Below are positions 9,506 to 44,914 of a DNA stretch of 64,000 bases, piece by piece. Source of the stretch: Trypanosoma brucei (taxonomy: Eukaryota). The notes below the pieces were generated by a model. The model was given only the letters and a program-made list of their open reading frames with translations, had not been told where the DNA came from and made no database searches. The stretch is taken from assembly GCA_000002445.1 (NCBI GenBank), contig CH464491.1, positions 256,001-320,000 on the forward strand. Reading direction: 5' to 3'. The translations under genes were made by a program, and so were the position numbers. Within the stretch, counting starts at the first letter, position 1. Each line of letters starts with the position of its first letter.

Positions 9506-9534
<29 letters not shown>
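9506..9534. repeat. (AC)n microsatellite, about 14 units
   Basis: acacacacacacacacacacacacacaca, read directly from the sequence. Confidence 0.95.

Positions 9535-14876: not shown

Positions 14877-14904
<28 letters not shown>
14877..14904. repeat. (TA)14 microsatellite
   Basis: tatatatatatatatatatatatatata, read directly from the sequence. Confidence 0.95.
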
Positions 14905-32100: not shown

Positions 32101-35100
32101 GCTTGAATTGGATAAGGATGAGAAGTTCAGCACCATGGAAGAGGAGCGTCGTAAGCTTATTGCTGAGGATCGTGAAGGTAATGCTGCACGCATTGCTGAA
32201 TTAGAAGCAGCAATGAACGAGCATTCACATGAGCTTGCTAAACTGAAAGCATCCGATAGCCGCAGCTTCCTTGATCCTATGCCAGAAGGAGTGCCGTTGA
32301 GTGAGCTTGAATTGGATAAGGATGAGAAGTTCAGCACCATGGAAGAGGAGCGTCGTAAGCTTATTGCTGAGGATCGTGAAGGTAATGCTGCACGCATTGC
32401 TGAATTAGAAGCAGCAATGAACGAGCATTCACATGAGCTTGCTAAACTGAAAGCATCCGATAGCCGCAGCTTCCTTGATCCTATGCCAGAAGGAGTGCCG
32501 TTGAGTGAGCTTGAATTGGATAAGGATGAGAAGTTCAGCACCATGGAAGAGGAGCGTCGTAAGCTTATTGCTGAGGATCGTGAAGGTAATGCTGCACGCG
32601 TTGCTGAACTAGAAGCTGCAATGAACGAGCATTCACATGAGCTTGCTAAACTGAAAGCATCCGATAGCCGCAGCTTCCTTGATCCTATGCCAGAAGGAGT
32701 GCCGTTGAGTGAGCTAGGATTGGATAAGGATGAGAAGTTCAGCACCATGGAAGAGGAGCGTCGTAAGCTTATTGCTGAGGATCGTGAAGGTAATGCTGCA
32801 CGCATTGCTGAACTAGAAGCAGCAATGAACGAGTATTCACATGAGCTTGCTAAACTGAAAGCATCCGATAGCCGCAGCTTCCTTGATCCTATGCCAGAAG
32901 GAGTGCCGTTGAGTGAGCTAGGATTGGATAAGGATGAGAAGTTCAGCACCATGGAAGAGGAGCGTCGTAAGCTTATTGCTGAGGATCGTGAAGGTAATGC
33001 TGCACGCATTGCTGAATTAGAAGCAGCAATGAACGAGCATTCACATGAGCTTGCTAAACTGAAAGCATCCGATAGCCGCAGCTTCCTTGATCCTATGCCA
33101 GAAGGAGTGCCGTTGAGTGAGCTTGAATTGGATAAGGATGAGAAGTTCAGCACCATGGAAGAGGAGCGTCGTAAGCTTATTGCTGAGGATCGTGAAGGTA
33201 ATGCTGCACGCATTGCTGAATTAGAAGTTGCAATGAACGAGCATTCACATGAGCTTGCTAAACTGAAAGCATCCGATAGCCGCAGCTTCCTTGATCCTAT
33301 GCCAGAAGGAGTGCCGTTGAGTGAGCTTGAATTGGATAAGGATGAGAAGTTCAGCACCATGGAAGAGGAGCGTCGTAAGCTTATTGCTGAGGATCGTGAA
33401 GGTAATGCTGCACGCATTGCTGAACTAGAAGCAGCAATGAACGAGCATTCACATGAGCTTGCTAAACTGAAAGCATCCGATAGCCGCAGCTTCCTTGATC
33501 CTATGCCAGAAGGAGTGCCGTTGAGTGAGCTTGAATTGGATAAGGATGAGAAGTTCAGCACCATGGAAGAGGAGCGTCGTAAGCTTATTGCTGAGGATCG
33601 TGAAGGTAATGCTGCACGCATTGCTGAACTAGAAGCTGCAATGAACGAGCATTCACATGAGCTTGCTAAACTGAAAGCATCCGATAGCCGCAGCTTCCTT
33701 GATCCTATGCCAGAAGGAGTGCCGTTGAGTGAGCTAGGATTGGATAAGGATGAGAAGTTCAGCACCATGGAAGAGGAGCGTCGTAAGCTTATTGCTGAGG
33801 ATCGTGAAGGTAATGCTGCACGCATTGCTGAATTAGAAGCAGCGATGAACGAGTATTCACATGAGCTTGCTAAACTGAAAGCATCCGATAGCCGCAGCTT
33901 CCTTGATCCTATGCCAGAAGGAGTGCCACTAAATGAGCTTGAATTGGACAAGGATGAGAAGTTCAGCACCATGGAAGAGGAGCGTCGTAAGCTTATTGCT
34001 GAGGATCGTGAAGGTAATGCTGCACGCATTGCTGAACTAGAAGCAGCAATGAACGAGTATTCACATGAGCTTGCTAAACTGAAAGCATCCGATAGCCGCA
34101 GCTTCCTTGATCCTATGCCAGAAGGAGTGCCACTAAATGAGCTTGAATTGGACAAGGATGAGAAGTTCAGCACCATGGAAGAGGAGCGTCGTAAGCTTAT
34201 TGCCGAGGATCGTGAAGGTAATGCTGCACGCATTGCTGAACTAGAAGCTGCAATGAACGAGCATTCACATGAGCTTGCTAAACTGAAAGCATCCGATAGC
34301 CGCAGCTTCCTTGATCCTATGCCAGAAGGAGTGCCGTTGAGTGAGCTTGAATTGGACAAGGATGAGAAGTTCAGCACCATGGAAGAGGAGCGTCGTAAGC
34401 TTATTGCTGAGGATCGTGAAGGTAATGCTGCACGCATTGCTGAATTAGAAGCAGCAATGAACGAGCATTCACATGAGCTTGCTAAACTGAAAGCATCCGA
34501 TAGCCGCAGCTTCCTTGATCCTATGCCAGAAGGAGTGCCGCTAAGTGAGCTTGAATTGGATAAGGATGAGAAGTTCAGCACCATGGAAGAGGAGCGTCGT
34601 AAGCTTATTGCTGAGGATCGTGAAGGTAATGCTGCACGCATTGCTGAACTAGAAGCAGCAATGAACGAGCATTCACATGAGCTTGCTAAACTGAAAGCAT
34701 CCGATAGCCGCAGCTTCCTTGATCCTATGCCAGAAGGAGTGCCGTTGAGTGAGCTAGGATTGGATAAGGATGAGAAGTTCAGCACCATGGAAGAGGAGCG
34801 TCGTAAGCTTATTGCTGAGGATCGTGAAGGTAATGCTGCACGCATTGCTGAATTAGAAGCAGCAATGAACGAGCATTCACATGAGCTTGCTAAACTGAAA
34901 GCATCCGATAGCCGCAGCTTCCTTGATCCTATGCCAGAAGGAGTGCCGTTGAGTGAGCTAGGATTGGATAAGGATGAGAAGTTCAGCACCATGGAAGAGG
35001 AGCGTCGTAAGCTTATTGCTGAGGATCGTGAAGGTAATGCTGCACGCATTGCTGAATTAGAAGCAGCAATGAACGAGCATTCACATGAGCTTGCTAAACT

Positions 35101-38100
35101 GAAAGCATCCGATAGCCGCAGCTTCCTTGATCCTATGCCAGAAGGAGTGCCGTTGAGTGAGCTTGAATTGGATAAGGATGAGAAGTTCAGCACCATGGAA
35201 GAGGAGCGTCGTAAGCTTATTGCTGAGGATCGTGAAGGTAATGCTGCACGCATTGCTGAATTAGAAGCAGCAATGAACGAGCATTCACATGAGCTTGCTA
35301 AACTGAAAGCATCCGATAGCCGCAGCTTCCTTGATCCTATGCCAGAAGGAGTGCCGTTGAGTGAGCTTGAATTGGATAAGGATGAGAAGTTCAGCACCAT
35401 GGAAGAGGAGCGTCGTAAGCTTATTGCTGAGGATCGTGAAGGTAATGCTGCACGCATTGCTGAACTAGAAGCAGCAATGAACGAGTATTCACATGAGCTT
35501 GCTAAACTGAAAGCATCCGATAGCCGCAGCTTCCTTGATCCTATGCCAGAAGGAGTGCCGTTGAGTGAGCTTGAATTGGATAAGGATGAGAAGTTCAGCA
35601 CCATGGAAGAGGAGCGTCGTAAGCTTATTGCTGAGGATCGTGAAGGTAATGCTGCACGCATTGCTGAATTAGAAGCAGCAATGAACGAGCATTCACATGA
35701 GCTTGCTAAACTGAAAGCATCCGATAGCCGCAGCTTCCTTGATCCTATGCCAGAAGGAGTGCCGTTGAGTGAGCTTGAATTGGACAAGGATGAGAAGTTC
35801 AGCACCATGGAAGAGGAGCGTCGTAAGCTTATTGCTGAGGATCGTGAAGGTAATGCTGCACGCATTGCTGAATTAGAAGCAGCAATGAACGAGCATTCAC
35901 ATGAGCTTGCTAAACTGAAAGCATCCGATAGCCGCAGCTTCCTTGATCCTATGCCAGAAGGAGTGCCGTTGAGTGAGCTTGAATTGGATAAGGATGAGAA
36001 GTTCAGCACCATGGAAGAGGAGCGTCGTAAGCTTATTGCTGAGGATCGTGAAGGTAATGCTGCACGCATTGCTGAACTAGAAGCAGCAATGAACGAGTAT
36101 TCACATGAGCTTGCTAAACTGAAAGCATCCGATAGCCGCAGCTTCCTTGATCCTATGCCAGAAGGAGTGCCGTTGAGTGAGCTTGAATTGGATAAGGATG
36201 AGAAGTTCAGCACCATGGAAGAGGAGCGTCGTAAGCTTATTGCTGAGGATCGTGAAGGTAATGCTGCACGCATTGCTGAATTAGAAGCAGCAATGAACGA
36301 GCATTCACATGAGCTTGCTAAACTGAAAGCATCCGATAGCCGCAGCTTCCTTGATCCTATGCCAGAAGGAGTGCCGTTGAGTGAGCTTGAATTGGATAAG
36401 GATGAGAAGTTCAGCACCATGGAAGAGGAGCGTCGTAAGCTTATTGCTGAGGATCGTGAAGGTAATGCTGCACGCATTGCTGAACTAGAAGCTGCAATGA
36501 ACGAGCATTCACATGAGCTTGCTAAACTGAAAGCATCCGATAGCCGCAGCTTCCTTGATCCTATGCCAGAAGGAGTGCCGTTGAGTGAGCTTGAATTGGA
36601 CAAGGATGAGAAGTTCAGCACCATGGAAGAGGAGCGTCGTAAGCTTATTGCTGAGGATCGTGAAGGTAATGCTGCACGCATTGCTGAACTAGAAGCTGCA
36701 ATGAACGAGCATTCACATGAGCTTGCTAAACTGAAAGCATCCGATAGCCGCAGCTTCCTTGATCCTATGCCAGAAGGAGTGCCGTTGAGTGAGCTAGGAT
36801 TGGATAAGGATGAGAAGTTCAGCACCATGGAAGAGGAGCGTCGTAAGCTTATTGCTGAGGATCGTGAAGGTAATGCTGCACGCATTGCTGAATTAGAAGC
36901 AGCGATGAACGAGTATTCACATGAGCTTGCTAAACTGAAAGCATCCGATAGCCGCAGCTTCCTTGATCCTATGCCAGAAGGAGTGCCGTTGAGTGAGCTT
37001 GAATTGGACAAGGATGAGAAGTTCAGCACCATGGAAGAGGAGCGTCGTAAGCTTATTGCCGAGGATCGTGAAGGTAATGCTGCACGCATTGCTGAACTAG
37101 AAGCTGCAATGAACGAGCATTCACATGAGCTTGCTAAACTGAAAGCATCCGATAGCCGCAGCTTCCTTGATCCTATGCCAGAAGGAGTGCCGTTGAGTGA
37201 GCTTGGATTGGATAAGGATGAGAAGTTCAGCACCATGGAAGAGGAGCGTCGTAAGCTTATTGCTGAGGATCGTGAAGGTAATGCTGCACGCATTGCTGAA
37301 CTAGAAGCAGCGATGAACGAGCATTCACATGAGCTTGCTAAACTGAAAGCATCCGATAGCCGCAGCTTCCTTGATCCTATGCCAGAAGGAGTGCCACTAA
37401 GTGAGCTAGGATTGGATAAGGATGAGAAGTTCAGCACCATGGAAGAGGAGCGTCGTAAGCTTATTGCTGAGGATCGTGAAGGTAATGCTGCACGCATTGC
37501 TGAACTAGAAGCAGCGATGAACGAGCATTCACATGAGCTTGCTAAACTGAAAGCGTCATATAGCCGCAGCTTCCTTGATCCTATGCCAGAAGGAGTGCCG
37601 TTGAGTGAGCTTGAATTGGATAAGGATGAGAAGTTCAGCACCATGGAAGAGGAGCGTCGTAAGCTTATTGCTGAGGATCGTGAAGGTAATGCAACACGCA
37701 TTGCTGAATTAGAAGCAGCAATGAACGAGCATTCACATGAGCTTGCTAAACTGAAAGCATCCGATAGCCGCAGCTTCCTTGATCCTATGCCAGAAGGAGT
37801 GCCGTTGAGTGAGCTTGAATTGGATAAGGATGAGAAGTTCAGCACCATGGAAGAGGAGCGTCGTAAGCTTATTGCTGAGGATCGTGAAGGTAATGCTGCA
37901 CGCATTGCTGAACTAGAAGCAGCGATGAACGAGCATTCACATGAGCTTGCTAAACTGAAAGCATCCGATAGCCGCAGCTTCCTTGATCCTATGCCAGAAG
38001 GAGTGCCGTTGAGTGAGCTTGAATTGGATAAGGATGAGAAGTTCAGCACCATGGAAGAGGAGCGTCGTAAGCTTATTGCTGAGGATCGTGAAGGTAATGC

Positions 38101-41100
38101 TGCACGCATTGCTGAACTAGAAGCAGCAATGAACGAGCATTCACATGAGCTTGCTAAACTGAAAGCATCCGATAGCCGCAGCTTCCTTGATCCTATGCCA
38201 GAAGGAGTGCCGTTGAGTGAGCTAGGATTGGATAAGGATGAGAAGTTCAGCACCATGGAAGAGGAGCGTCGTAAGCTTATTGCTGAGGATCGTGAAGGTA
38301 ATGCAACACGCATTGCTGAACTAGAAGCAGCAATGAACGAGCATTCACATGAGCTTGCTAAACTGAAAGCGTCATATAGCCGCAGCTTCCTTGATCCTAT
38401 GCCAGAAGGAGTGCCGTTGAGTGAGCTTGAATTGGACAAGGATGAGAAGTTCAGCACCATGGAAGAGGAGCGTCGTAAGCTTATTGCTGAGGATCGTGAA
38501 GGTAATGCAACACGTATCGCTGAATTAGAAGTTGCAATGAACGAGCATTCACATGAGCTTGCTAAACTGAAAGCATCCGATAGCCGCAGCTTCCTTGATC
38601 CTATGCCAGAAGGAGTGCCACTAAGTGAGCTTGAATTGGATAAGGATGAGAAGTTCAGCACCATGGAAGAGGAGCGTCGTAAGCTTATTGCCGATGATCG
38701 TGAAGGTAATGCTGCACGCATTGCTAGACTTGAGGAGAGGATGAACGAACTTTCCCGTGAACTCGCAAGAATGAAGTTGAAGGATCGCAGCTTCCTCGAT
38801 CCTATGCCAGAAGGAGTGCCGTTGAGTGAGCTTGAATTGGATAAGGATGAGAAGTTCAGCACCATGGAAGAGGAGCGTCGTAAGCTTATTGCTGAGGATC
38901 GTGAAGGTAATGCAACACGCATTGCTGAATTAGAAGCAGCAATGAACGAGCATTCACATGAGCTTGCTAAACTGAAAGCATCCGATAGCCGCAGCTTCCT
39001 TGATCCTATGCCAGAAGGAGTGCCACTAAGTGAGCTTGAATTGGATAAGGATGAGAAGTTCAGCACCATGGAAGAGGAGCGTCGTAAGCTTATTGCCGAT
39101 GATCGTGAAGGTAATGCTGCACGCATTGCTAGACTCGAGGAGAGGATGAACGAACTTTCCCGTGAACTCGCAAGAATGAAGTTGAAGGATCGCAGCTTCC
39201 TCGATCCTATGCCAGAAGGAGTGCCACTAAGTGAGCTTGAATTGGATAAGGATGAGAAGTTCAGCACCATGGAAGAGGAGCGTCGTAAGCTTATTGCTGA
39301 GGATCGTGAAGGTAATGCAACACGCATTGCTGAATTAGAAGTTGCAATGAACGAGCATTCACATGAGCTTGCTAAACTGAAAGCATCCGATAGCCGCAGC
39401 TTCCTTGATCCTATGCCAGAAGGAGTGCCGTTGAGTGAGCTTGAATTGGATAAGGATGAGAAGTTCAGCACCATGGAAGAGGAGCGTCGTAAGCTTATTG
39501 CTGAGGATCGTGAAGGTAATGCAACACGCATTGCTGAATTAGAAGTTGCAATGAACGAGCATTCACATGAGCTTGCTAAACTGAAAGCATCCGATAGCCG
39601 CAGCTTCCTTGATCCTATGCCAGAAGGAGTGCCGTTGAGTGAGCTTGAATTGGACAAGGATGAGAAGTTCAGCACCATGGAAGAGGAGCGTCGTAAGCTT
39701 ATTGCTGAGGATCGTGAAGGTAATGCAACACGCATTGCTGAATTAGAAGCAGCAATGAACGAGCATTCACATGAGCTTGCTAAACTGAAAGCATCCGATA
39801 GCCGCAGCTTCCTTGATCCTATGCCAGAAGGAGTGCCGTTGAGTGAGCTTGAATTGGATAAGGATGAGAAGTTCAGCACCATGGAAGAGGAGCGTCGTAA
39901 GCTTATTGCTGAGGATCGTGAAGGTAATGCAACACGCATTGCTGAATTAGAAGCAGCAATGAACGAGCATTCACATGAGCTTGCTAAACTGAAAGCATCC
40001 GATAGCCGCAGCTTCCTTGATCCTATGCCAGAAGGAGTGCCGTTGAGTGAGCTAGGATTGGATAAGGATGAGAAGTTCAGCACCATGGAAGAGGAGCGTC
40101 GTAAGCTTATTGCTGAGGATCGTGAAGGTAATGCAACACGCATTGCTGAACTAGAAGCAGCAATGAACGAGCATTCACATGAGCTTGCTAAACTGAAAGC
40201 ATCCGATAGCCGCAGCTTCCTTGATCCTATGCCAGAAGGAGTGCCGTTGAGTGAGCTTGAATTGGATAAGGATGAGAAGTTCAGCACCATGGAAGAGGAG
40301 CGTCGTAAGCTTATTGCTGAGGATCGTGAAGGTAATGCTGCACGCATTGCTGAACTAGAAGCTGCAATGAACGAGCATTCACATGAGCTTGCTAAACTGA
40401 AAGCATCCGATAGCCGCAGCTTCCTTGATCCTATGCCAGAAGGAGTGCCGTTGAGTGAGCTTGAATTGGATAAGGATGAGAAGTTCAGCACCATGGAAGA
40501 GGAGCGTCGTAAGCTTATTGCTGAGGATCGTGAAGGTAATGCTGCACGCATTGCTGAATTAGAAGCAGCAATGAAGGAGAATTNNNNNNNNNNNNNNNNN
40601 NNNNNNNNNNNNNNNNNNNNNNNNNNNNNNNNNNNNNNNNNNNNNNNNNNNNNNNNNNNNNNNNNNNNNNNNNNNNNNNNNNNTAAGCTTATTGCTGAGG
40701 ATCGTGAAGGTAATGCTGCACGCATTGCTGAATTAGAAGCAGCAATGAACGAGCATTCACATGAGCTTGCTAAACTGAAAGCATCCGATAGCCGCAGCTT
40801 CCTTGATCCTATGCCAGAAGGAGTGCCACTAAGTGAGCTTGAATTGGACAAGGATGAGAAGTTCAGCACCATGGAAGAGGAGCGTCGTAAGCTTATTGCT
40901 GAGGATCGTGAAGGTAATGCAACACGCATTGCTGAATTAGAAGCAGCAATGAACGAGCATTCACATGAGCTTGCTAAACTGAAAGCATCCGATAGCCGCA
41001 GCTTCCTTGATCCTATGCCAGAAGGAGTGCCGTTGAGTGAGCTTGAATTGGATAAGGATGAGAAGTTCAGCACCATGGAAGAGGAGCGTCGTAAGCTTAT

Positions 41101-44100
41101 TGCTGAGGATCGTGAAGGTAATGCTGCACGCATTGCTGAATTAGAAGTTGCAATGAACGAGCATTCACATGAGCTTGCTAAACTGAAAGCATCCGATAGC
41201 CGCAGCTTCCTTGATCCTATGCCAGAAGGAGTGCCGTTGAGTGAGCTTGAATTGGATAAGGATGAGAAGTTCAGCACCATGGAAGAGGAGCGCCGTAAGC
41301 TTATTGCTGAGGATCGTGAAGGTAATGCAACACGCATTGCTGAATTAGAAGTTGCAATGAACGAGCATTCACATGAGCTTGCTAAACTGAAAGCATCCGA
41401 TAGCCGCAGCTTCCTTGATCCTATGCCAGAAGGAGTGCCACTAAGTGAGCTAGGATTGGACAAGGATGAGAAGTTCAGCACCATGGAAGAGGAGCGCCGT
41501 AAGCTCATTGCTGAGGATCGTGAAGGTAATGCAACACGCATCGCTGAATTAGAAGTTGCAATGAACGAGTATTCACATGAGCTTGCTAAACTGAAAGCAT
41601 CCGATAGCCGCAGCTTCCTTGATCCTATGCCAGAAGGAGTGCCACTAAGTGAGCTTGAATTGGACAAGGATGAGAAGTTCAGCACCATGGAAGAGGAGCG
41701 TCGTAAGCTCATTGCTGAGGATCGTGAAGGTAATGCAACACGCATTTGTCGCTTGGAAAGGAAAATGGGGAGGCGTGTTGATAAGCTGGCTAAACTGAAA
41801 GCGTCATATAGCCGCAGCTTCCTTGATCCTATGCCAGAAGGAGTGCCACTAAATGAGCTTGAATTGGATAAGGATGAGAAGTTCAGCACCATGGAAGAGG
41901 AGCGTCGTAAGCTCATTGCTGAGGATCGTGAAGGTAATGCAACACGCATTGCTGAATTAGAAGTTGCAATGAACGAGCATTCACATGAGCTTGCTAAACT
42001 GAAAGCATCCGATAGCCGCAGCTTCCTTGATCCTATGCCAGAAGGAGTGCCACTAAGTGAGCTTGAATTGGATAAGGATGAGAAGTTCAGCACCATGGAA
42101 GAGGAGCGTCGTAAGCTTATTGCTGAGGATCGTGAAGGTAATGCAACACGCATTGCTGAATTAGAAGAGTGTATGAGTGCTCGAGTTCGGAATTTGGCTA
42201 TTTGTAAGTCTACTTTAGGTGGAGTGATTGTTGATGAGAGAATTGGTCTTGTTCCTTTGTATTTGTTACCGTTGGGGGAGGATTCGGTTTTGAGTTCGTT
42301 GACTTCTAAATTGGAATCTATGCGATGTGGTGGGTGTTTACCCGATAGTGTTGCTGTGCGTGATATCCAAGAACAAATTATATGTCGAGTAGAGAAATTG
42401 GCAGAAGTGTATTTAGAACATGAACTTGATTTTCTGGAAACTGTTGACGGAATTTCTGTTTCTCAGATCGCACTTTCTGATGACAAGGTGTTTTGTGAAA
42501 TGCAGCGGTCGTTGCGCCAGTTGAGAAAAAGTCCGGTAAGAAATGCAGAAGCCATACGGGATATTGAGTATGCGATGAATAATATCGTTCGTGAACTGTC
42601 GTCAAAACTATTACTGGAGGATTGTAGTTACCTGAATCAGTGTCCTCACGGCGTACCTCTTGCTGACTTACCGCTGGATAATCGGTTATTTCGCGAGATT
42701 GAATTGAAGAGAAGAAGATTAAAAGAGGATGACCCGTTAAAAAATGCGACGAGGATTAGAGAGTTGGAGATGAAATTGAATGATCATGCCGAGCGTTTGG
42801 CCGCGCTTATGTTAAGTGAGGAACGTGCTTTTCTTGAGCCATGCTCGCACGGTCTTCCCCTTAGTCGCCTTCAGTTGGGAGAGGATTCTTCCTTTCTTGC
42901 AATGGAAAGGGAAAGAAGGAAGTTATTGCGTGAAGGGGGTAAAGACAAAAACCGTATCAGGTATCTCGAAGAATGCATGAGGGAACATGTCAGCAATGTC
43001 GCCCTCTCTCTAATTTCCTGGCAGGATGTTCAATTTCATGAAGCTAACCATTCTGTAGCGGAGATGTGGCCGCGAATCGGTGAGTTGTACCCTGAAGGAA
43101 TCCGAAACTCTGTGTTTCCGGAAATAACACAGCCGGGCGATACTTCATCTGCGCCTGGTGAACTTGGCTATTTAGCACCTTTCATTGCCGCTCTCAGTCA
43201 ACACCCGCCTCTAATTCATCGGCTTCTGGAAACGAAAACACATCCCGTTAATGGTCCATATTCTTTCATCTTTTTTGATCCGAACAGCAACCCTGTTCGT
43301 GTTGACATTGATGACCGTGTGCCAGTGGATGCGAAGTGTGAGCCCAAGTTTACACGCGTGCCACACCGGTCTTGGTACCCGCTGCTGCTGGAGAAGGCAT
43401 ATGCGAAGTTTGTTGGTGGGTACGCAAAGCTCGACCAGTGCACACCACACGAAACCCTCCATGACCTAACGGGCCGTCCAGTGACACATATCCCTTTTGA
43501 TGAGAAGCGAGCAGATGGAATCAAAATTGGGGACTTCCGATCTGTGAAATTCTGGAAGGGGATTAAAAGGGATCTTGCGGCTGGAGATGTTATTATGGCA
43601 ATGACGAACGGTAGTGTTCCCGACGGCCTTCACTCTCAATGTAGTTACGCTCTCCTTAGTGTAATCGAAACTGTGCATGAATCGAATGATGTCTCTGACA
43701 TCGTGATCAAATTACACAACTGCTACTACGATAGCCCGACATACGACGGCCCACTGTGTAACGATGATGATAACTGGACCGATGGTTTGAAGAGACTTTG
43801 CCATTATAATCCTGAGGAGGATGCACTTTACATACCTGTTCCTGTGTTTCTGCGTAACTTCTCGAGCATGCAGCGCTGTCACATAAACTGTGGCGACCGT
43901 CTGACTGCGCCTGGTGAGTGGACTGGGGTAAGCTGTGGAGGAAACCCGAAGTTCACAACTTTCCGGAACAACCCCATCTATCTTGTGGAAAACAAAACCT
44001 CCCGTCCCGTTACCATTCTTGCTGAGCTGCGGCATCAAGCCCCTGTGTTTTTTGATGCCGATGGGGTAAATCACTATCATCAGTCTGGGCTGGCGCTCTT

Positions 44101-44914
44101 ACAGCAGCATCATGTTTCTGAAATTATTACGTGGCTCCTTACTAGTACGACGCACCGCTTTTTGCAAAAAGGTATTTTAATGGATACACGCGAGATTTGC
44201 TCAAGGATGGAAATACCTCCGAATACCACGTGCTATCTCGTCCCATATACGTTGAAGCGAGGTAGCTACGGCAAGTTCAATGTGTCGCTGTATCCTGCAT
44301 CTTCTGACATTACTTTGGTCCCTTTGGCTGCTTTGTGTAATTCGCACGTGGTAATTAACGTTGATGTTTTGCTGAAACCGGGGAGCCGGGAGGGGAGAAG
44401 AGTCGACTTTTCGGTGCACGAAGCTTGTGATGTACACTTGCTGCTGCATCAGAATAAAATTACTGACCCTGCTAGTGTCAAAAGGGGTAACCTCCTTGCG
44501 GAGGACGAGGTTTCTATGTCTGTTAATGACGAGCGGATGTCAGTCCTGGCGACCACTCGTGACACCTCCAATGCGCGTGAGCAGTCCTTGGCTTTGGAGC
44601 TTCCAACCGCTGGTCGGTATTCCGTTTTTATTGAGTGCCGAAGCCGACTCAGAACTGGTGAATGTCCTTGTACTTTGTCTATATATTCGCCGAGCCGCGC
44701 CAAAACCAGGTTGGCTCCCCTTCCGCCTAGTGGGACGCAATCGGTACTTCCAGCAATTGCACCTCGTCAGCCTCCCCGGCAGCCCGCACTTTATGGGAGA
44801 AGGTTGGATCAGCCTCCTCTCAGTGCAGGCACGGTGAGGGCCGCCGCTGCTACGCTTCCTGTAGGCTTAGTTCCAGCACCTCCAAAGTCCGGCACGACAC
44901 CGCAGCGTAGATGA
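23180..44914 (+). CDS. ClpGM6: Giant calpain-like cytoskeletal repeat protein (ClpGM6 / GM6-antigen type), 7244 codons as assembled. N-terminal tandem calpain-like domains, central array of 68-aa repeats, C-terminal calpain-like domain and Pro-rich tail
   Basis: Two N-terminal calpain domain-II-like regions (QGSHYECFMLSALATL and QGEHFECCCLTAFAAL, compare calpain QGxLGDCWLLAA) plus domain-III-like regions. About 69 near-identical 68-aa units (EGVPLSELELDKDEKFSTMEEERRKLIAEDREGNAARIAELEAAMNEHSHELAKLKASDSRSFLDPMP). C-terminal calpain-like domain (WPRIGELYPEGIRNS...PLLLEKAYAKF). A 68-aa repeat combined with calpain-like ends matches my recollection of the T. brucei flagellum-attachment-zone GM6 antigen/ClpGM6. 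The ORF is read across a 100-N gap, so its true length is unknown. Confidence 0.85.
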   Translation: MRVTINMACQEVNSEVPDSDVVFHDTIFMRNNKHVSEQWIRIGELYPNGAKESLLPETFAREQFGQGSHYECFMLSALATLVKFPDIIRNCFVSRNVRRDGRYTFQFFRDKEWVKVEIDDSVMLEDDEVLFIRSPTSHWWPLLFEKAYAKFYTSYDNLEGCTLQEAYHDLTGNPVLNIPMDARLAKAAGVDVTGGQYWLDLAQKLQSGQFVGSLLTRETDLESMGLQSEQQYGILEIFSLTGTSSVSDIVIHLYNPFEDEEFTYKGPLNSKDTEWTPKLREKYNVDDTHSIFLPLHVALKIVNSVQLCYISPIDGDATYFDDEWKGETAGGNPTSVTWRKNPLYCVRNAGINPVELVVVIKQKDQRHLWTSEDDELMYKRCGIVVVQSTTVTQIPTYFVTGNNHKAIHKSLFLNSREVSSFVRIPPNSLCYLVPSCMKKGAESAFTLALYRMKHQNYTEFNVSRLALPKLLWHNPIQEKLQLQMFTKDRRDFYVDIPTDIHILMHQEKPFVSEKTGGDAMVQDYVGVYLYDDTDRKIGGVHAATNFRETSVLHRLPRSGRYAISITCPRASGEVPIALTIVGSPDANVRIVEAPDDASMFDDEDDIAEGDEDATVSNPIDYIPVAGGGQVFTEVPDSTVPFEDKRFMVDNKIMTNEPWIHIGDLYPEGKTRSLLPERLSREQFEQGEHFECCCLTAFAALVEHHPNVIRDAFVTKAVRRDGRYTFRFHRYGQWVKVEIDDRIPLLGGKTLFCRSSDGYWWPLLLEKAYAKFYTLYQNIEGCTLRELFYDLTGLPVLSIPMELKLAKAVLCDVDDVSFWVELSEGLKDCACAAVARPGFDDTLGLSNGQEYAVLDVVSLTDGEASSISDLVVKLHNPFLETEYKGPMNASDAAWSSELRTRLCPERRDTIYIPVEVFCNAFLTVEKVMVRGLIVPGWQFNSEWGEGTNGGNPTLVTWRENPIYVVQNTADTPLQIIAMIGQPDQRRVLHLLPEQEVNYVQCGLSLAKSIKGESIPTYLLTPNSHVLIHKGRFFSYREVADVIVVPGNSLTFLVPSAMFRDKTKFLLSYWYSSANDRNSVTIERLNLGVARHLPAIAHLTVKERVREQVDFIVDVPTDVHILLRQEKPCHGDSVSNALTDDFLAMYLYNSEDDQLSGVVTATNYREMGIVHHLSEGGRYVIYVVCPRAEGEVPLRIEIVAMQSAQVRTVEALPLCKSILQVEKELKLSTGSLPYSPLLISEGDLKNFSGRLSDNSMRLESSSDPDLSFLGAEVEGIPTLDLTLMSDSSFSEMARERMQLKRDPIANASRLAEVEDSMVARANAIAKEMHLRERRYLNPEPEGVPLELLPLNEDEVVSEKEDRLRALNRKEQKDEKLLRSLEDVIADRVHEIARELKVSERDLFLDPTPGGFPVAQLPLDEDDVFHSLEVERLQLRLRQDSLASKERIAELENMMNCRTTELIDKMKEEIRKFLDPTPLGIPLEELKLDEHDNYVAKEISLIGMIRKGKKESQEAISIREQLLQIEYAVAKEHLNNFRIQYLGDDIEGRQPNELNLEEEETYMQMERKLIEYYNSNQRNSEEAQKIRVNLLHKATKASKHLNRSERKNYIKRDRLEISISNIPLDDNEQFTTLEAERIRKKRNKKNSEVEQIEMELNNIAQQLAKLKASDSRSFLDPMPEGVPLSELELDKDEKFSTMEEERRKLIAEDREDNATRIAELEAAMNEYSHELAKLKASDSRSFLDPMPEGVPLSELELDKDEKFSTMEEERRKLIAEDREGNAARIAELEAAMNEHSHELAKLKASDSRSFLDPMPEGVPLSELELDKDEKFSTMEEERRKLIAEDREDNATRIAELEAAMNEYSHELAKLKASDSRSFLDPMPEGVPLSELELDKDEKFSTMEEERRKLIAEDREGNAARIAELEAAMNEHSHELAKLKASDSRSFLDPMPEGVPLSELGLDKDEKFSTMEEERRKLIAEDREGNATRIAELEAAMNEHSHKLAKLKASDSRSFLDPMPEGVPLSELELDKDEKFSTMEEERRKLIAEDREGNAARIAELEAAMNEHSHELAKLKASDSRSFLDPMPEGVPLSELELDKDEKFSTMEEERRKLIAEDREGNAARIAELEAAMNEHSHELAKLKASDSRSFLDPMPEGVPLSELELDKDEKFSTMEEERRKLIAEDREGNAARIAELEAAMNEHSHELAKLKASDSRSFLDPMPEGVPLSELELDKDEKFSTMEEERRKLIAEDREGNAARVAELEAAMNEHSHELAKLKASDSRSFLDPMPEGVPLSELGLDKDEKFSTMEEERRKLIAEDREGNAARIAELEAAMNEHSHELAKLKASDSRSFLDPMPEGVPLSELELDKDEKFSTMEEERRKLIAEDREGNAARIARLEERMNELSRELARMKLKDRSFLDPMPEGVPLSELELDKDEKFSTMEEERRKLIAEDREGNATRIAELEAAMNEHSHELAKLKASDSRSFLDPMPEGVPLSELELDKDEKFSTMEEERRKLIAEDREGNATRIAELEAAMSEHSHELAKLKASDSRSFLDPMPEGVPLSELELDKDEKFSTMEEERRKLIAEDREGNAARIAELEAAMNEHSHELAKLKASDSRSFLDPMPEGVPLSELELDKDEKFSTMEEERRKLIAEDREGNAARIAELEAAMNEHSHELAKLKASDSRSFLDPMPEGVPLSELELDKDEKFSTMEEERRKLIAEDREGNAARIAELEAAMNEHSHELAKLKASDSRSFLDPMPEGVPLSELELDKDEKFSTMEEERRKLIAEDREGNAARIAELEAAMNEHSHELAKLKASDSRSFLDPMPEGVPLSELGLDKDEKFSTMEEERRKLIAEDREGNAARIAELEAAMNEHSHELAKLKASDSRSFLDPMPEGVPLSELELDKDEKFSTMEEERRKLIAEDREGNAARIAELEAAMNEHSHELAKLKASDSRSFLDPMPEGVPLSELELDKDEKFSTMEEERRKLIAEDREGNAARIAELEAAMNEHSHELAKLKASDSRSFLDPMPEGVPLSELELDKDEKFSTMEEERRKLIAEDREGNAARIAELEAAMNEHSHELAKLKASDSRSFLDPMPEGVPLSELELDKDEKFSTMEEERRKLIAEDREGNAARVAELEAAMNEHSHELAKLKASDSRSFLDPMPEGVPLSELGLDKDEKFSTMEEERRKLIAEDREGNAARIAELEAAMNEYSHELAKLKASDSRSFLDPMPEGVPLSELGLDKDEKFSTMEEERRKLIAEDREGNAARIAELEAAMNEHSHELAKLKASDSRSFLDPMPEGVPLSELELDKDEKFSTMEEERRKLIAEDREGNAARIAELEVAMNEHSHELAKLKASDSRSFLDPMPEGVPLSELELDKDEKFSTMEEERRKLIAEDREGNAARIAELEAAMNEHSHELAKLKASDSRSFLDPMPEGVPLSELELDKDEKFSTMEEERRKLIAEDREGNAARIAELEAAMNEHSHELAKLKASDSRSFLDPMPEGVPLSELGLDKDEKFSTMEEERRKLIAEDREGNAARIAELEAAMNEYSHELAKLKASDSRSFLDPMPEGVPLNELELDKDEKFSTMEEERRKLIAEDREGNAARIAELEAAMNEYSHELAKLKASDSRSFLDPMPEGVPLNELELDKDEKFSTMEEERRKLIAEDREGNAARIAELEAAMNEHSHELAKLKASDSRSFLDPMPEGVPLSELELDKDEKFSTMEEERRKLIAEDREGNAARIAELEAAMNEHSHELAKLKASDSRSFLDPMPEGVPLSELELDKDEKFSTMEEERRKLIAEDREGNAARIAELEAAMNEHSHELAKLKASDSRSFLDPMPEGVPLSELGLDKDEKFSTMEEERRKLIAEDREGNAARIAELEAAMNEHSHELAKLKASDSRSFLDPMPEGVPLSELGLDKDEKFSTMEEERRKLIAEDREGNAARIAELEAAMNEHSHELAKLKASDSRSFLDPMPEGVPLSELELDKDEKFSTMEEERRKLIAEDREGNAARIAELEAAMNEHSHELAKLKASDSRSFLDPMPEGVPLSELELDKDEKFSTMEEERRKLIAEDREGNAARIAELEAAMNEYSHELAKLKASDSRSFLDPMPEGVPLSELELDKDEKFSTMEEERRKLIAEDREGNAARIAELEAAMNEHSHELAKLKASDSRSFLDPMPEGVPLSELELDKDEKFSTMEEERRKLIAEDREGNAARIAELEAAMNEHSHELAKLKASDSRSFLDPMPEGVPLSELELDKDEKFSTMEEERRKLIAEDREGNAARIAELEAAMNEYSHELAKLKASDSRSFLDPMPEGVPLSELELDKDEKFSTMEEERRKLIAEDREGNAARIAELEAAMNEHSHELAKLKASDSRSFLDPMPEGVPLSELELDKDEKFSTMEEERRKLIAEDREGNAARIAELEAAMNEHSHELAKLKASDSRSFLDPMPEGVPLSELELDKDEKFSTMEEERRKLIAEDREGNAARIAELEAAMNEHSHELAKLKASDSRSFLDPMPEGVPLSELGLDKDEKFSTMEEERRKLIAEDREGNAARIAELEAAMNEYSHELAKLKASDSRSFLDPMPEGVPLSELELDKDEKFSTMEEERRKLIAEDREGNAARIAELEAAMNEHSHELAKLKASDSRSFLDPMPEGVPLSELGLDKDEKFSTMEEERRKLIAEDREGNAARIAELEAAMNEHSHELAKLKASDSRSFLDPMPEGVPLSELGLDKDEKFSTMEEERRKLIAEDREGNAARIAELEAAMNEHSHELAKLKASYSRSFLDPMPEGVPLSELELDKDEKFSTMEEERRKLIAEDREGNATRIAELEAAMNEHSHELAKLKASDSRSFLDPMPEGVPLSELELDKDEKFSTMEEERRKLIAEDREGNAARIAELEAAMNEHSHELAKLKASDSRSFLDPMPEGVPLSELELDKDEKFSTMEEERRKLIAEDREGNAARIAELEAAMNEHSHELAKLKASDSRSFLDPMPEGVPLSELGLDKDEKFSTMEEERRKLIAEDREGNATRIAELEAAMNEHSHELAKLKASYSRSFLDPMPEGVPLSELELDKDEKFSTMEEERRKLIAEDREGNATRIAELEVAMNEHSHELAKLKASDSRSFLDPMPEGVPLSELELDKDEKFSTMEEERRKLIADDREGNAARIARLEERMNELSRELARMKLKDRSFLDPMPEGVPLSELELDKDEKFSTMEEERRKLIAEDREGNATRIAELEAAMNEHSHELAKLKASDSRSFLDPMPEGVPLSELELDKDEKFSTMEEERRKLIADDREGNAARIARLEERMNELSRELARMKLKDRSFLDPMPEGVPLSELELDKDEKFSTMEEERRKLIAEDREGNATRIAELEVAMNEHSHELAKLKASDSRSFLDPMPEGVPLSELELDKDEKFSTMEEERRKLIAEDREGNATRIAELEVAMNEHSHELAKLKASDSRSFLDPMPEGVPLSELELDKDEKFSTMEEERRKLIAEDREGNATRIAELEAAMNEHSHELAKLKASDSRSFLDPMPEGVPLSELELDKDEKFSTMEEERRKLIAEDREGNATRIAELEAAMNEHSHELAKLKASDSRSFLDPMPEGVPLSELGLDKDEKFSTMEEERRKLIAEDREGNATRIAELEAAMNEHSHELAKLKASDSRSFLDPMPEGVPLSELELDKDEKFSTMEEERRKLIAEDREGNAARIAELEAAMNEHSHELAKLKASDSRSFLDPMPEGVPLSELELDKDEKFSTMEEERRKLIAEDREGNAARIAELEAAMKENXXXXXXXXXXXXXXXXXXXXXXXXXXXXXXXXXXKLIAEDREGNAARIAELEAAMNEHSHELAKLKASDSRSFLDPMPEGVPLSELELDKDEKFSTMEEERRKLIAEDREGNATRIAELEAAMNEHSHELAKLKASDSRSFLDPMPEGVPLSELELDKDEKFSTMEEERRKLIAEDREGNAARIAELEVAMNEHSHELAKLKASDSRSFLDPMPEGVPLSELELDKDEKFSTMEEERRKLIAEDREGNATRIAELEVAMNEHSHELAKLKASDSRSFLDPMPEGVPLSELGLDKDEKFSTMEEERRKLIAEDREGNATRIAELEVAMNEYSHELAKLKASDSRSFLDPMPEGVPLSELELDKDEKFSTMEEERRKLIAEDREGNATRICRLERKMGRRVDKLAKLKASYSRSFLDPMPEGVPLNELELDKDEKFSTMEEERRKLIAEDREGNATRIAELEVAMNEHSHELAKLKASDSRSFLDPMPEGVPLSELELDKDEKFSTMEEERRKLIAEDREGNATRIAELEECMSARVRNLAICKSTLGGVIVDERIGLVPLYLLPLGEDSVLSSLTSKLESMRCGGCLPDSVAVRDIQEQIICRVEKLAEVYLEHELDFLETVDGISVSQIALSDDKVFCEMQRSLRQLRKSPVRNAEAIRDIEYAMNNIVRELSSKLLLEDCSYLNQCPHGVPLADLPLDNRLFREIELKRRRLKEDDPLKNATRIRELEMKLNDHAERLAALMLSEERAFLEPCSHGLPLSRLQLGEDSSFLAMERERRKLLREGGKDKNRIRYLEECMREHVSNVALSLISWQDVQFHEANHSVAEMWPRIGELYPEGIRNSVFPEITQPGDTSSAPGELGYLAPFIAALSQHPPLIHRLLETKTHPVNGPYSFIFFDPNSNPVRVDIDDRVPVDAKCEPKFTRVPHRSWYPLLLEKAYAKFVGGYAKLDQCTPHETLHDLTGRPVTHIPFDEKRADGIKIGDFRSVKFWKGIKRDLAAGDVIMAMTNGSVPDGLHSQCSYALLSVIETVHESNDVSDIVIKLHNCYYDSPTYDGPLCNDDDNWTDGLKRLCHYNPEEDALYIPVPVFLRNFSSMQRCHINCGDRLTAPGEWTGVSCGGNPKFTTFRNNPIYLVENKTSRPVTILAELRHQAPVFFDADGVNHYHQSGLALLQQHHVSEIITWLLTSTTHRFLQKGILMDTREICSRMEIPPNTTCYLVPYTLKRGSYGKFNVSLYPASSDITLVPLAALCNSHVVINVDVLLKPGSREGRRVDFSVHEACDVHLLLHQNKITDPASVKRGNLLAEDEVSMSVNDERMSVLATTRDTSNAREQSLALELPTAGRYSVFIECRSRLRTGECPCTLSIYSPSRAKTRLAPLPPSGTQSVLPAIAPRQPPRQPALYGRRLDQPPLSAGTVRAAAATLPVGLVPAPPKSGTTPQRR
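23249..26185 (+). repeat. Segmental duplication block A1, nearly 100% identical to 47511-50441. Mosaic, with two divergent islands at about 24285-24335 and 24540-24740.
   Basis: Direct comparison of the two regions. Duplicated antisense ORFs in the 6-frame track sit at constant offsets of 24262, 24259 and 24256 (for example 23687-23872 = 47949-48134; 24869-25159 = 49125-49415; 25839-26042 = 50095-50298). The offset shifts by 3 bp at each divergent island, consistent with in-frame codon indels. Confidence 0.9.
26959..27498 (+). repeat. Segmental duplication block A2, about 540 bp with only a few SNPs against 51482-52021
   Basis: Offset 24523. Shared antisense ORF segments (26716-27393 versus 51326-51916). 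Mismatches seen include gcagaaggacg versus gcgaaaagacg and gaaggtgagtg versus gaagctgagtg. Confidence 0.9.
28141..42165 (+). repeat. Coding tandem array of 204-bp (68-aa) units, about 69 copies, about 98-100% identical at nucleotide level. A few 201-bp variant units.
   Basis: The string gctaaactgaaagcatccgatagccgcagcttccttgatcc recurs at exactly 204-bp spacing (for example 28160 and 28364). Variants are limited to a few codons (EDNATR/EGNAAR, NEYSH/NEHSH, ELELD/ELGLD, S/N). A 201-bp variant unit (...IARLEERMNELSRELARMKLKDRSFLDP...) occurs at about 30362, 38723 and 39128. Confidence 0.95.
40584..40683. other. Assembly gap (100 N) inside the 204-bp repeat array
   Basis: A run of exactly 100 n characters. 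The bases just before it (aatgaaggagaatt) depart from the repeat consensus (aatgaacgagcatt), as expected for a low-quality contig end. Confidence 0.98.

What the first reader, a model, noticed from the sequence alone, without database searches (positions are those of the whole stretch)
40584..40683. Assembly gap inside the perfect-repeat array: copy number and true size of gene 1 are unresolved
A 100-N placeholder lies inside 14 kb of 204-bp units that are more than 98% identical. The bases just before the gap deviate from the consensus (aatgaaggagaatt versus aatgaacgagcatt). 100 is not a multiple of 3, so the preserved reading frame across the gap comes from how the contigs were joined, not from biology. 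The real array is probably longer than shown. It may be collapsed, and any phenotype or antigen-size inference depends on it.
Basis: seen in the sequence. Interest (0 to 1): 0.55.

Follow-up and report, generated by a model that had tools for sequence, protein, structure and literature searches.

The report
Known assembly gap in ClpGM6 repeats
The 100 Ns are a placeholder at a point where the Trypanosoma brucei reference genome could not be assembled through the 204-bp repeats of the giant flagellum-attachment protein ClpGM6; this problem is already described in the literature, so the finding is correct but ordinary.

Summary
Exactly 100 N (40584-40683), the only N run in the window, interrupts a 14.0-kb array of 204-bp units (28155-42167).

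The window is T. brucei brucei TREU927 chromosome 11. The gene is ClpGM6, a calpain-like flagellum attachment zone protein with 68-aa GM6 repeats. GenBank annotates it as two partial CDSs split at this gap (Tb927.11.1090 and Tb927.11.1100). Hayes 2014 and the TrypTag paper describe this as a known faulty, probably collapsed gene model.

- The array is not perfect. Left of the gap, units are 98.5% identical to the consensus and 97.6% pairwise. The right side is 92%. There are 44 distinct units among 64.
- The frame survives by coincidence. Any in-register gap is -74, +130 or +334 bp and so on, all equal to 1 mod 3, like 100.
- A zero-length gap is out of register. The smallest consistent solution is a 74-bp overlap of the two contig ends.

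The true copy number cannot be obtained here. The assembly shows 68 units. A T. b. equiperdum long-read assembly shows about 78. Gel data (about 1500 kDa against 817 kDa assembled) hint at more.

Verdict: already known, low interest.

The parts
40584..40683 (.). 100-N placeholder for a gap of unknown length between two contigs
   Evidence: It is the only N run in the window. The flanks are out of the 204-bp register by 30 bp. T. b. gambiense DAL972 has its own 100-N run in the same gene, at L002 17634-17733.
28155..40583 (+). Left block of GM6 repeats: 61.0 units of 204 bp. It ends mid-unit and forms the 3' end of the 5' partial gene model (Tb11.57.0008 / Tb927.11.1090).
   Evidence: TRF; anchor spacing; unit statistics. 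The N-terminal fragment 23198-40582 is 5795 aa and 658 kDa, which equals the 'predicted 660 kDa' quoted for ClpGM6. PMC3808341 counts 60 repeats.
40684..42167 (+). Right block of GM6 repeats: 7.3 units, which become more divergent toward the 3' edge. It forms the start of the 3' partial gene model (Tb11.47.0036 / Tb927.11.1100).
   Evidence: TRF; unit table. The translation of 40685-44911 is 100% identical to EAN79091.1/XP_828203.1.
40568..40583 (+). Deviant contig end, with two substitutions (40576 C>G, 40580 C>A) found in no other unit. It gives ...AAMKEN instead of ...AAMNEH.
   Evidence: The cause (a low-quality read end or a clone junction) is inferred, not shown.
40510..40583 (+). The last 74 bp of the left contig. 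It equals the first 74 bp of the right contig (40684-40757) except at the two deviant bases, so the two contigs may overlap.
   Evidence: 2 mismatches in 74; the shared 66-mer is the commonest variant (15 of 64 units), so the match is not significant (p about 0.2).
23198..44914 (+). ClpGM6 reading frame as assembled. It has two N-terminal calpain-like domains plus Calpain_III, degenerate DUF7623 repeats, the GM6 array, more degenerate repeats, and a C-terminal calpain-like domain. The two fragments total 7204 aa and 817 kDa.
   Evidence: ORF; Pfam Peptidase_C2, Calpain_III and DUF7623; masses. The published antibody peptides KASDSRSFLDPMPE and ERRKLIAEDREGN occur exactly in the unit.
43157..43882 (+). 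C-terminal calpain-like (Peptidase_C2) domain
   Evidence: protein 3, residues 336-577, E = 9e-21.
23258..24529 (+). First N-terminal calpain-like domain plus Calpain_III. The catalytic Cys and Asn positions are kept, and the His position is Glu.
   Evidence: alignment to human m-calpain 1KFU.

Best explanation
The N run is a sequencing and assembly artefact, not a biological feature. The window is part of chromosome 11 of the Sanger-era T. brucei brucei TREU927 reference. The assembler could not carry one contig through the roughly 14-kb array of near-identical 204-bp units that encodes the 68-aa GM6 repeats of ClpGM6. Two contigs were therefore ordered and oriented by other evidence and joined with the conventional 100-N 'unknown length' spacer. 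One contig ends mid-unit with a poor or atypical last 8 bases, and the other starts mid-unit.

The 100 carries no size information. To keep the 204-bp register and the reading frame, the real junction must be a 74-bp overlap or a gap of 130 + 204k bp. The gene is a single giant gene with this layout: two calpain-like domains, then degenerate repeats, then at least 68 GM6 units, then degenerate repeats, then a calpain-like domain. Databases show it as two partial models.

What is shown: the gap, the register arithmetic, the identity of the gene and strain, and the split annotation. What is inferred: why assembly stopped there, and how many units are missing. My best guess is a few to about ten units, on the basis of about 78 units in a related strain.
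For: Gap and register:
- Exactly 100 N, the only such run.
- Anchor spacing across the gap is 378 rather than a multiple of 204.

Strain:
- Five flanking proteins are exact matches to TREU927 proteins EAN79082-89 on a 5,261,801-bp record.
- The ribokinase is exact only in TREU927.

Annotation:
- The post-gap fragment is 100% identical to the GenBank partial CDS EAN79091.1.
- The pre-gap fragment has the mass (658 kDa) that the literature quotes for Tb927.11.1090.

Literature:
- Hayes et al. 2014: there are two fragments, one without a stop codon that ends in a repeat and one that starts in a repeat. The repeat region is 'likely collapsed'. A Southern blot is consistent with one gene and at least 55 repeats.
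- TrypTag: 'known problematic gene model'.

Other assemblies:
- DAL972 collapses the array to 3.2 + 5.7 units around its own 100-N gap.
- The T. equiperdum OVI short-read contig loses the array altogether.
- T. b. equiperdum GCA_003543875.1 runs from the N-terminus through about 78 units to the C-terminus without any N.
- T. cruzi H49/calpain orthologues show the same N-region problem.
Against: Nothing argues against an artefact.

Limits on the size inference:
- Unit variants are not collinear between TREU927 and the equiperdum assembly, so the missing units cannot be placed or counted by comparison.
- That assembly, if it is strain IVM-t1 (my recollection, not shown by a tool), rests on very few PacBio reads (7,508 reads, mean 8.5 kb). 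It also has indel errors, with unit spacing of 200-205 bp.
- The 74-bp overlap solution, in which nothing is missing, is not excluded.
Confidence: 0.95

Rival explanations
1. Nothing is missing. The two contig ends are the same repeat unit and overlap by 74 bp. The true array then has 68 units and is 174 bp shorter than displayed.
For: The last 74 bp before the gap equal the first 74 bp after it, except for the two terminal bases that look like end-of-contig errors. This solution keeps both the register and the frame.
Against: The shared 66-mer is the commonest variant of that segment (15 of 64 units), so the match is expected by chance about one time in five. The literature regards the region as collapsed. 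A relative has about 78 units. The protein migrates far above the assembled mass.
Confidence: 0.1
2. The gap hides most of the array. ClpGM6 is about 1.5 MDa, which means roughly 90 more units (about 18 kb) than assembled.
For: On gradient SDS-PAGE, ClpGM6 migrates at about 1500 kDa, well above its predicted size (PMC5358337). The assembled fragments sum to 817 kDa and one unit is 7.69 kDa, so about 89 further units would be needed.
Against: The gel was run on a Lister 427-derived line, not TREU927. Size calibration above 1 MDa is rough. The unit is very acidic (18 D+E against 10 K+R), and acidic proteins are known to run slowly on SDS-PAGE (general knowledge). The equiperdum assembly spans the gene with about 78 units and no gap. 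The Southern blot gave only a lower bound of 55 repeats.
Confidence: 0.15
3. The join is wrong. [quoted passage not shown]
For: The locus holds a second giant calpain-like repeat gene whose N-terminus is 98-99% identical to that of ClpGM6, so mis-scaffolding is conceivable. A preserved frame is a 1-in-3 event.
Against: DAL972 and the equiperdum assembly have the same order: N-terminus, GM6 units, C-terminus, gene 2. In the equiperdum assembly there is no N in between. The units on both sides of the gap are the same GM6 type, whereas the repeats of gene 2 are degenerate. The Southern blots of Hayes et al. fit a single gene.
Confidence: 0.02

Closest known systems
ClpGM6 of Trypanosoma brucei (Tb927.11.1090 + Tb927.11.1100; formerly Tb11.57.0008 + Tb11.47.0036), Hayes et al. 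2014, PMC4121973
   Same: It is this gene in this strain's reference sequence. It has the same 68-aa repeat, with the published peptides matching exactly, the same calpain-like ends, and the same split into two partial models at a repeat-internal gap.
   Different: Nothing differs. The present work adds only the register arithmetic (-74 / +130 + 204k), the unit-variant census, and a comparison with other assemblies.
T. cruzi H49/calpain (FRA, JL7) genes, Galetovic et al. 2011, PMC3214072
   Same: These are orthologous FAZ calpain-like proteins with 204-bp/68-aa tandem repeats. In the CL Brener assembly the gene ends sit in repeats flanked by N regions, and the authors attribute this to collapsed repeats.
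   Different: The species and repeat sequence differ, and there are several gene copies. P0022 and similar proteins are 57-60% identical in the C-terminal region.
T. b. gambiense DAL972 orthologue (CBH17003.1 and its upstream partner) and T. b. equiperdum GCA_003543875.1 orthologue
   Same: They lie at the same locus in the same gene order. DAL972 also has a 100-N gap inside the array.
   Different: DAL972 keeps only about 9 units. The equiperdum assembly has about 78 units without a gap, but with indel errors that break the ORF into many pieces. The interior units are homogenised to a different dominant variant, about 6 nt per unit away from the TREU927 consensus.
FAZ10 and other giant repetitive cytoskeletal proteins of trypanosomatids (PMC5358337)
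   Same: They are giant repeat proteins of the flagellum attachment zone whose annotated size is well below their gel size. The authors suspect that their repeats are under-assembled.
   Different: The repeat family is unrelated and they have no calpain-like domains.

Membership tests
ClpGM6 (T. brucei calpain-like GM6-repeat protein) | Tandem, near-identical 68-aa GM6 repeats that contain the published epitope peptides KASDSRSFLDPMPE and ERRKLIAEDREGN | tested here: met
   The unit is FLDPMPEGVPLSELELDKDEKFSTMEEERRKLIAEDREGNAARIAELEAAMNEHSHELAKLKASDSRS. The peptides are quoted in PMC4121973.
ClpGM6 (T. brucei calpain-like GM6-repeat protein) | [quoted passage not shown] | tested here: met
   Pfam Peptidase_C2 matches twice at the N-terminus (E = 5e-71), with Calpain_III, and once at the C-terminus (E = 9e-21).
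ClpGM6 (T. brucei calpain-like GM6-repeat protein) | Catalytic triad incomplete (non-enzymatic calpain-like protein) | tested here: met
   In the alignment of domain 1 to m-calpain 1KFU, the Cys and Asn positions are kept and the His position is Glu (ILEIF against GHAYS). For domains 2 and 3 I judged by eye only that His is absent at that position.
ClpGM6 (T. brucei calpain-like GM6-repeat protein) | Located on chromosome 11 of T. brucei, in the annotated neighbourhood, and annotated as two partial CDSs | tested here: met
   Five upstream proteins match EAN79082-89 of TREU927 exactly. The C-terminal fragment is 100% identical to EAN79091.1 'partial'.
ClpGM6 (T. brucei calpain-like GM6-repeat protein) | [quoted passage not shown] | not testable with these tools
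   Known from the literature only.
Unknown-length assembly gap (conventional 100-N spacer) | A run of exactly 100 N between two contigs | tested here: met
   The DAL972 assembly uses the same convention in the same gene.
Unknown-length assembly gap (conventional 100-N spacer) | The length of the N run does not match the flanking sequence register, so it is not a measured size | tested here: met
   Anchor spacing is 378 across the gap and 204 (or 201) everywhere else. The register requires -74 or 130 + 204k.
Unknown-length assembly gap (conventional 100-N spacer) | The record's gap feature or AGP file declares unknown length and the type of linkage evidence | not testable with these tools
   The TREU927 chromosome record could not be retrieved. 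An exact look-up of the fragment returned no contig.
Pfam DUF7623 repeat | Match to PF24610 above the gathering threshold | tested here: met
   Three units score 201 bits against a cut-off of 27.

The most novel reading that the evidence does not exclude
The gap conceals a much larger array, possibly one that differs between the two alleles. ClpGM6 in TREU927 would then have about 150 or more units (about 1.5 MDa), as its gel mobility suggests. Repeat number would be a variable, heritable determinant of this FAZ protein's length, and that variability would itself be the reason assembly failed.
Probability: 0.15. Interest if true: 0.3.

Novelty: already known. Interest (0 to 1): 0.08.

Why it matters
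The matter is practical rather than conceptual. Anyone who uses the TREU927 models Tb927.11.1090 and Tb927.11.1100 needs to know that they are two halves of one gene and that the repeat number is unknown. This affects tagging, RNAi design, proteomic mass or abundance estimates, GM6-based serodiagnostic antigen design, and counts of repeats between species. The published figures of 660 kDa and 60 repeats describe only the left contig. No new biology follows from the gap itself.

Tried and rejected
1. Placing the missing units by aligning unit-variant signatures of TREU927 against the equiperdum array. No shift gave a collinear match (mean of 5.7-6.5 differences at 28 informative sites for every shift). 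The interior units are homogenised separately in each lineage, and only the last 3-4 edge units are orthologous.

2. Testing whether the contigs overlap. A 74-bp overlap fits, but it is not statistically distinctive. Longer overlaps of 278-1502 bp have 10-164 mismatches and are rejected.

3. Exact look-up of the post-gap fragment to fetch the TREU927 record itself. No contig is on record. Identity was established through the cluster member P0039 instead.

4. Bridging the whole equiperdum array. 1,340 bp between L003 and L007 remain unread. The 1630-bp anchor spacing (7.99 units) was used instead.

5. Checking whether the contig ends are clone ends. The left end reads GAATT, one base short of an EcoRI site. 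The right contig starts one base before a HindIII site that occurs in almost every unit (64 sites in the array). This is suggestive but cannot be tested here. No EcoRI site exists elsewhere in the array.

6. Foldseek search of the 3-unit model against the PDB. No match had an E-value below 1.

7. Literature search for a long-read closure of this gap in TREU927. Nothing was found.

Full report
**Observation.** The window contains a single N run of exactly 100 bases at 40584-40683. It lies inside a tandem array of period 204 bp that spans 28155-42167. TRF reports 61.0 copies with 96% matches to the left and 7.3 copies with 93% matches to the right.

- Anchoring on a conserved 23-mer gives 68 unit starts, spaced 204 bp apart.
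- The exceptions are three 201-bp units (30230, 38591, 38996) and the interval across the gap, which is 378 bp.
- The last 16 bases before the gap, GCAATGAAGGAGAATT, differ from the consensus at 40576 and 40580. They occur nowhere else in the window, even with one mismatch allowed.

**How perfect the array is.** It is less perfect than the title of the finding says.

- The 57 full units on the left average 98.5% identity to the consensus and 97.6% to each other.
- The 7 units on the right average 92%, because the 3'-edge units decay.
- 44 of 64 units are distinct at DNA level and 20 at protein level.
- The longest exactly duplicated stretch in the left block is 611 bp.
- The variation is a mosaic of about 25 recurrent substitutions, plus a 67-aa subtype (...RIARLEERMNELSRELARMKLKDRS) that occurs three times.

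This amount of variation explains how Sanger reads could assemble 12.4 kb of the array at all.

**What it is.** One ORF runs on the + strand from ATG 23198 to the stop at 44914, through the Ns.

- Pfam finds two calpain-like Peptidase_C2 domains and a Calpain_III domain at the N-terminus, DUF7623 repeats in the middle, and a Peptidase_C2 domain at the C-terminus.
- The 68-aa unit contains, exactly, the two peptides used to raise the anti-ClpGM6 antibody in T. brucei.
- Five upstream proteins are exact matches to T. brucei brucei TREU927 chromosome 11 proteins EAN79082-89. The ribokinase is exact only in that strain.
- The translation that starts at the first full codon after the gap (40685-44911, 1409 aa) is 100% identical to EAN79091.1/XP_828203.1, 'calpain, putative, partial [TREU927]'.
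- The fragment before the gap (5795 aa) weighs 658 kDa, which is the 'predicted 660 kDa' quoted for ClpGM6/Tb927.11.1090.

The window is therefore the TREU927 reference, and the gap is the break between the gene models Tb927.11.1090 and Tb927.11.1100.

**Already described.**

- Hayes et al. 2014 (PMC4121973) state that Tb11.57.0008 has no stop codon and ends inside a repeat, and that Tb11.47.0036 begins inside a repeat. They say the repeat region is likely collapsed. Their Southern blots fit a single gene with at least 55 repeats.
- The TrypTag paper (PMC9981465) cites the pair as a known problematic gene model.
- Pillay et al. 2013 count 60 repeats, which is the left contig only.
- The T. cruzi orthologues (H49/calpain) show the same N regions at repeat-bearing gene ends.

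**Register and frame.** The spacing across the gap is 378 = 408 - 30. The left contig ends at unit phase 194 and the right contig starts at phase 121.

- A junction that keeps the 204-bp register must be a 74-bp overlap or a gap of 130, 334, ... bp.
- All of these equal 1 mod 3, as does 100. The frame therefore survives the placeholder by a 1-in-3 coincidence, not through any property of the join.
- The 74-bp overlap has only two mismatches, which are exactly the two odd terminal bases. The shared segment is the commonest variant (15 of 64 units), so this is weak evidence.

The window alone is compatible with 68 units or any larger number.

**Evidence from other assemblies.**

- T. b. gambiense DAL972 (L002) has the same gene order, but only 3.2 + 5.7 units around its own 100-N run.
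- The T. equiperdum OVI short-read contig (L001) alternates between 99.9% matches to the N-terminus of gene 1 and to the downstream paralogue, and it has lost the array. This is a chimeric collapse.
- T. b. equiperdum GCA_003543875.1 runs without any N from the N-terminus (L003) to the C-terminus (L007).
  - I count 23 anchors in L003 and 48 in L007. A 1630-bp unread bridge accounts for about 7 more, giving about 78 units.
  - I believe this is strain IVM-t1, sequenced with PacBio plus MiSeq (PMC6395869).
  - Its unit spacing of 200-205 bp and its fragmented ORFs show uncorrected indel errors.
  - If the strain identification is right, the PacBio data are sparse: 7,508 reads with a mean of 8.5 kb. 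The figure of 78 is therefore indicative only.
- Interior units in that strain are homogenised to a different dominant variant, and only the last few edge units are orthologous. Cross-strain alignment therefore cannot locate the missing TREU927 units.

**Protein size.** The assembled fragments sum to 817 kDa and one unit adds 7.69 kDa. Moreira et al. 2017 report that ClpGM6 migrates at about 1500 kDa. Taken literally, that would need about 89 more units (about 18 kb). However, the strain differs, calibration in that size range is rough, and the unit is strongly acidic (18 D+E against 10 K+R), which is known to slow migration. I keep this as a minority reading.

**What the repeat encodes.** An AlphaFold2 model of three units was built with an alignment of 26 divergent repeat triplets taken from the window. 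It is confident (pLDDT 95.5, pTM 0.80). Each unit is a short proline-rich, turn-rich linker (FLDPMPEGVPLSELELDKDEKF) followed by two helices of about 17 and 26 residues. No solved structure matches it. The first calpain-like domain keeps the Cys and Asn positions but has Glu in place of the catalytic His, in line with the published view that the protein is not an enzyme. That repeat number sets the physical length of a structural FAZ component is an inference.

**Verdict.** The feature is an already documented assembly artefact in a well-studied gene, so interest is low. The practical message is that the published figures of 660 kDa and 60 repeats describe only one contig. The true number of units in TREU927 still needs spanning reads or an EcoRV/NruI Southern blot (15.2 kb as assembled).

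Noticed in passing
window 47463-64000 (+), running off the window end: A second giant calpain-like gene starts at ATG 47463 and is open to the end of the window (at least 5512 aa). It carries about 60 degenerate 67-68-aa DUF7623 repeats. The ORF listing does not list it because it runs off the end. Three N-terminal segments are 98-99% identical to ClpGM6: 47508-48790 with 23246-24531, 48926-50441 with 24668-26185, and 51482-52021 with 26959-27498. This points to a recent duplication or gene conversion between neighbouring genes. In the equiperdum assembly this gene appears to be followed by a further copy.
   Followed up: partly
window 27994-42153 (-) and the many minus-strand ORFs at 46-63 kb: A 4719-aa antisense ORF runs through the whole GM6 array and the Ns, and shorter antisense ORFs cover gene 2. 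They exist because the repeat unit lacks stop codons in an antisense frame. Every gene from 3 to 44914 is on the + strand, so these ORFs are not genes.
   Followed up: partly
window 40579-40583 and 40684-40690: The left contig ends in GAATT, which is one base short of an EcoRI site, and the next consensus base is C. The right contig starts one base before the HindIII site (AAGCTT) that occurs in almost every unit (64 sites in the array). The contig ends may therefore be clone-insert ends rather than read-quality drop-offs. No EcoRI site exists elsewhere in the array.
   Followed up: no
window 30230-30430, 38591-38791, 38996-39196: Three 201-bp units form a distinct 67-aa subtype with a diverged C-terminal third (RIARLEERMNELSRELARMKLKDRS). 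They are useful single-copy-like landmarks for read-depth or long-read checks.
   Followed up: partly
L003 16973-21638 and L007 1-9900 (T. b. equiperdum), compared with window 28155-42167: The arrays of the two strains are each internally homogenised to different dominant unit variants, about 6 nt apart per unit. The 3'-most 3-4 divergent units are shared. This is the usual picture of concerted evolution with conserved array edges.
   Followed up: partly
L001 12000-21638 (T. equiperdum OVI contig CZPT02000675.1): This short-read contig has four 10-N gaps. It switches between 99.9-100% matches to the ClpGM6 N-terminus and to gene 2, and it lacks the GM6 array entirely. It is a chimeric collapse of the two paralogues.
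   Followed up: partly
window 31859-32470 (three consecutive consensus-identical units): The AlphaFold2 model of three GM6 units is very confident (pLDDT 95.5). Each unit is a proline-rich linker plus a two-helix hairpin. Foldseek finds no similar solved structure, with the best E-value at 1.2.
   Followed up: partly
window 9506-9534 and 14877-14904: Two intergenic dinucleotide microsatellites: (AC)14.5 and (TA)14.
   Followed up: no
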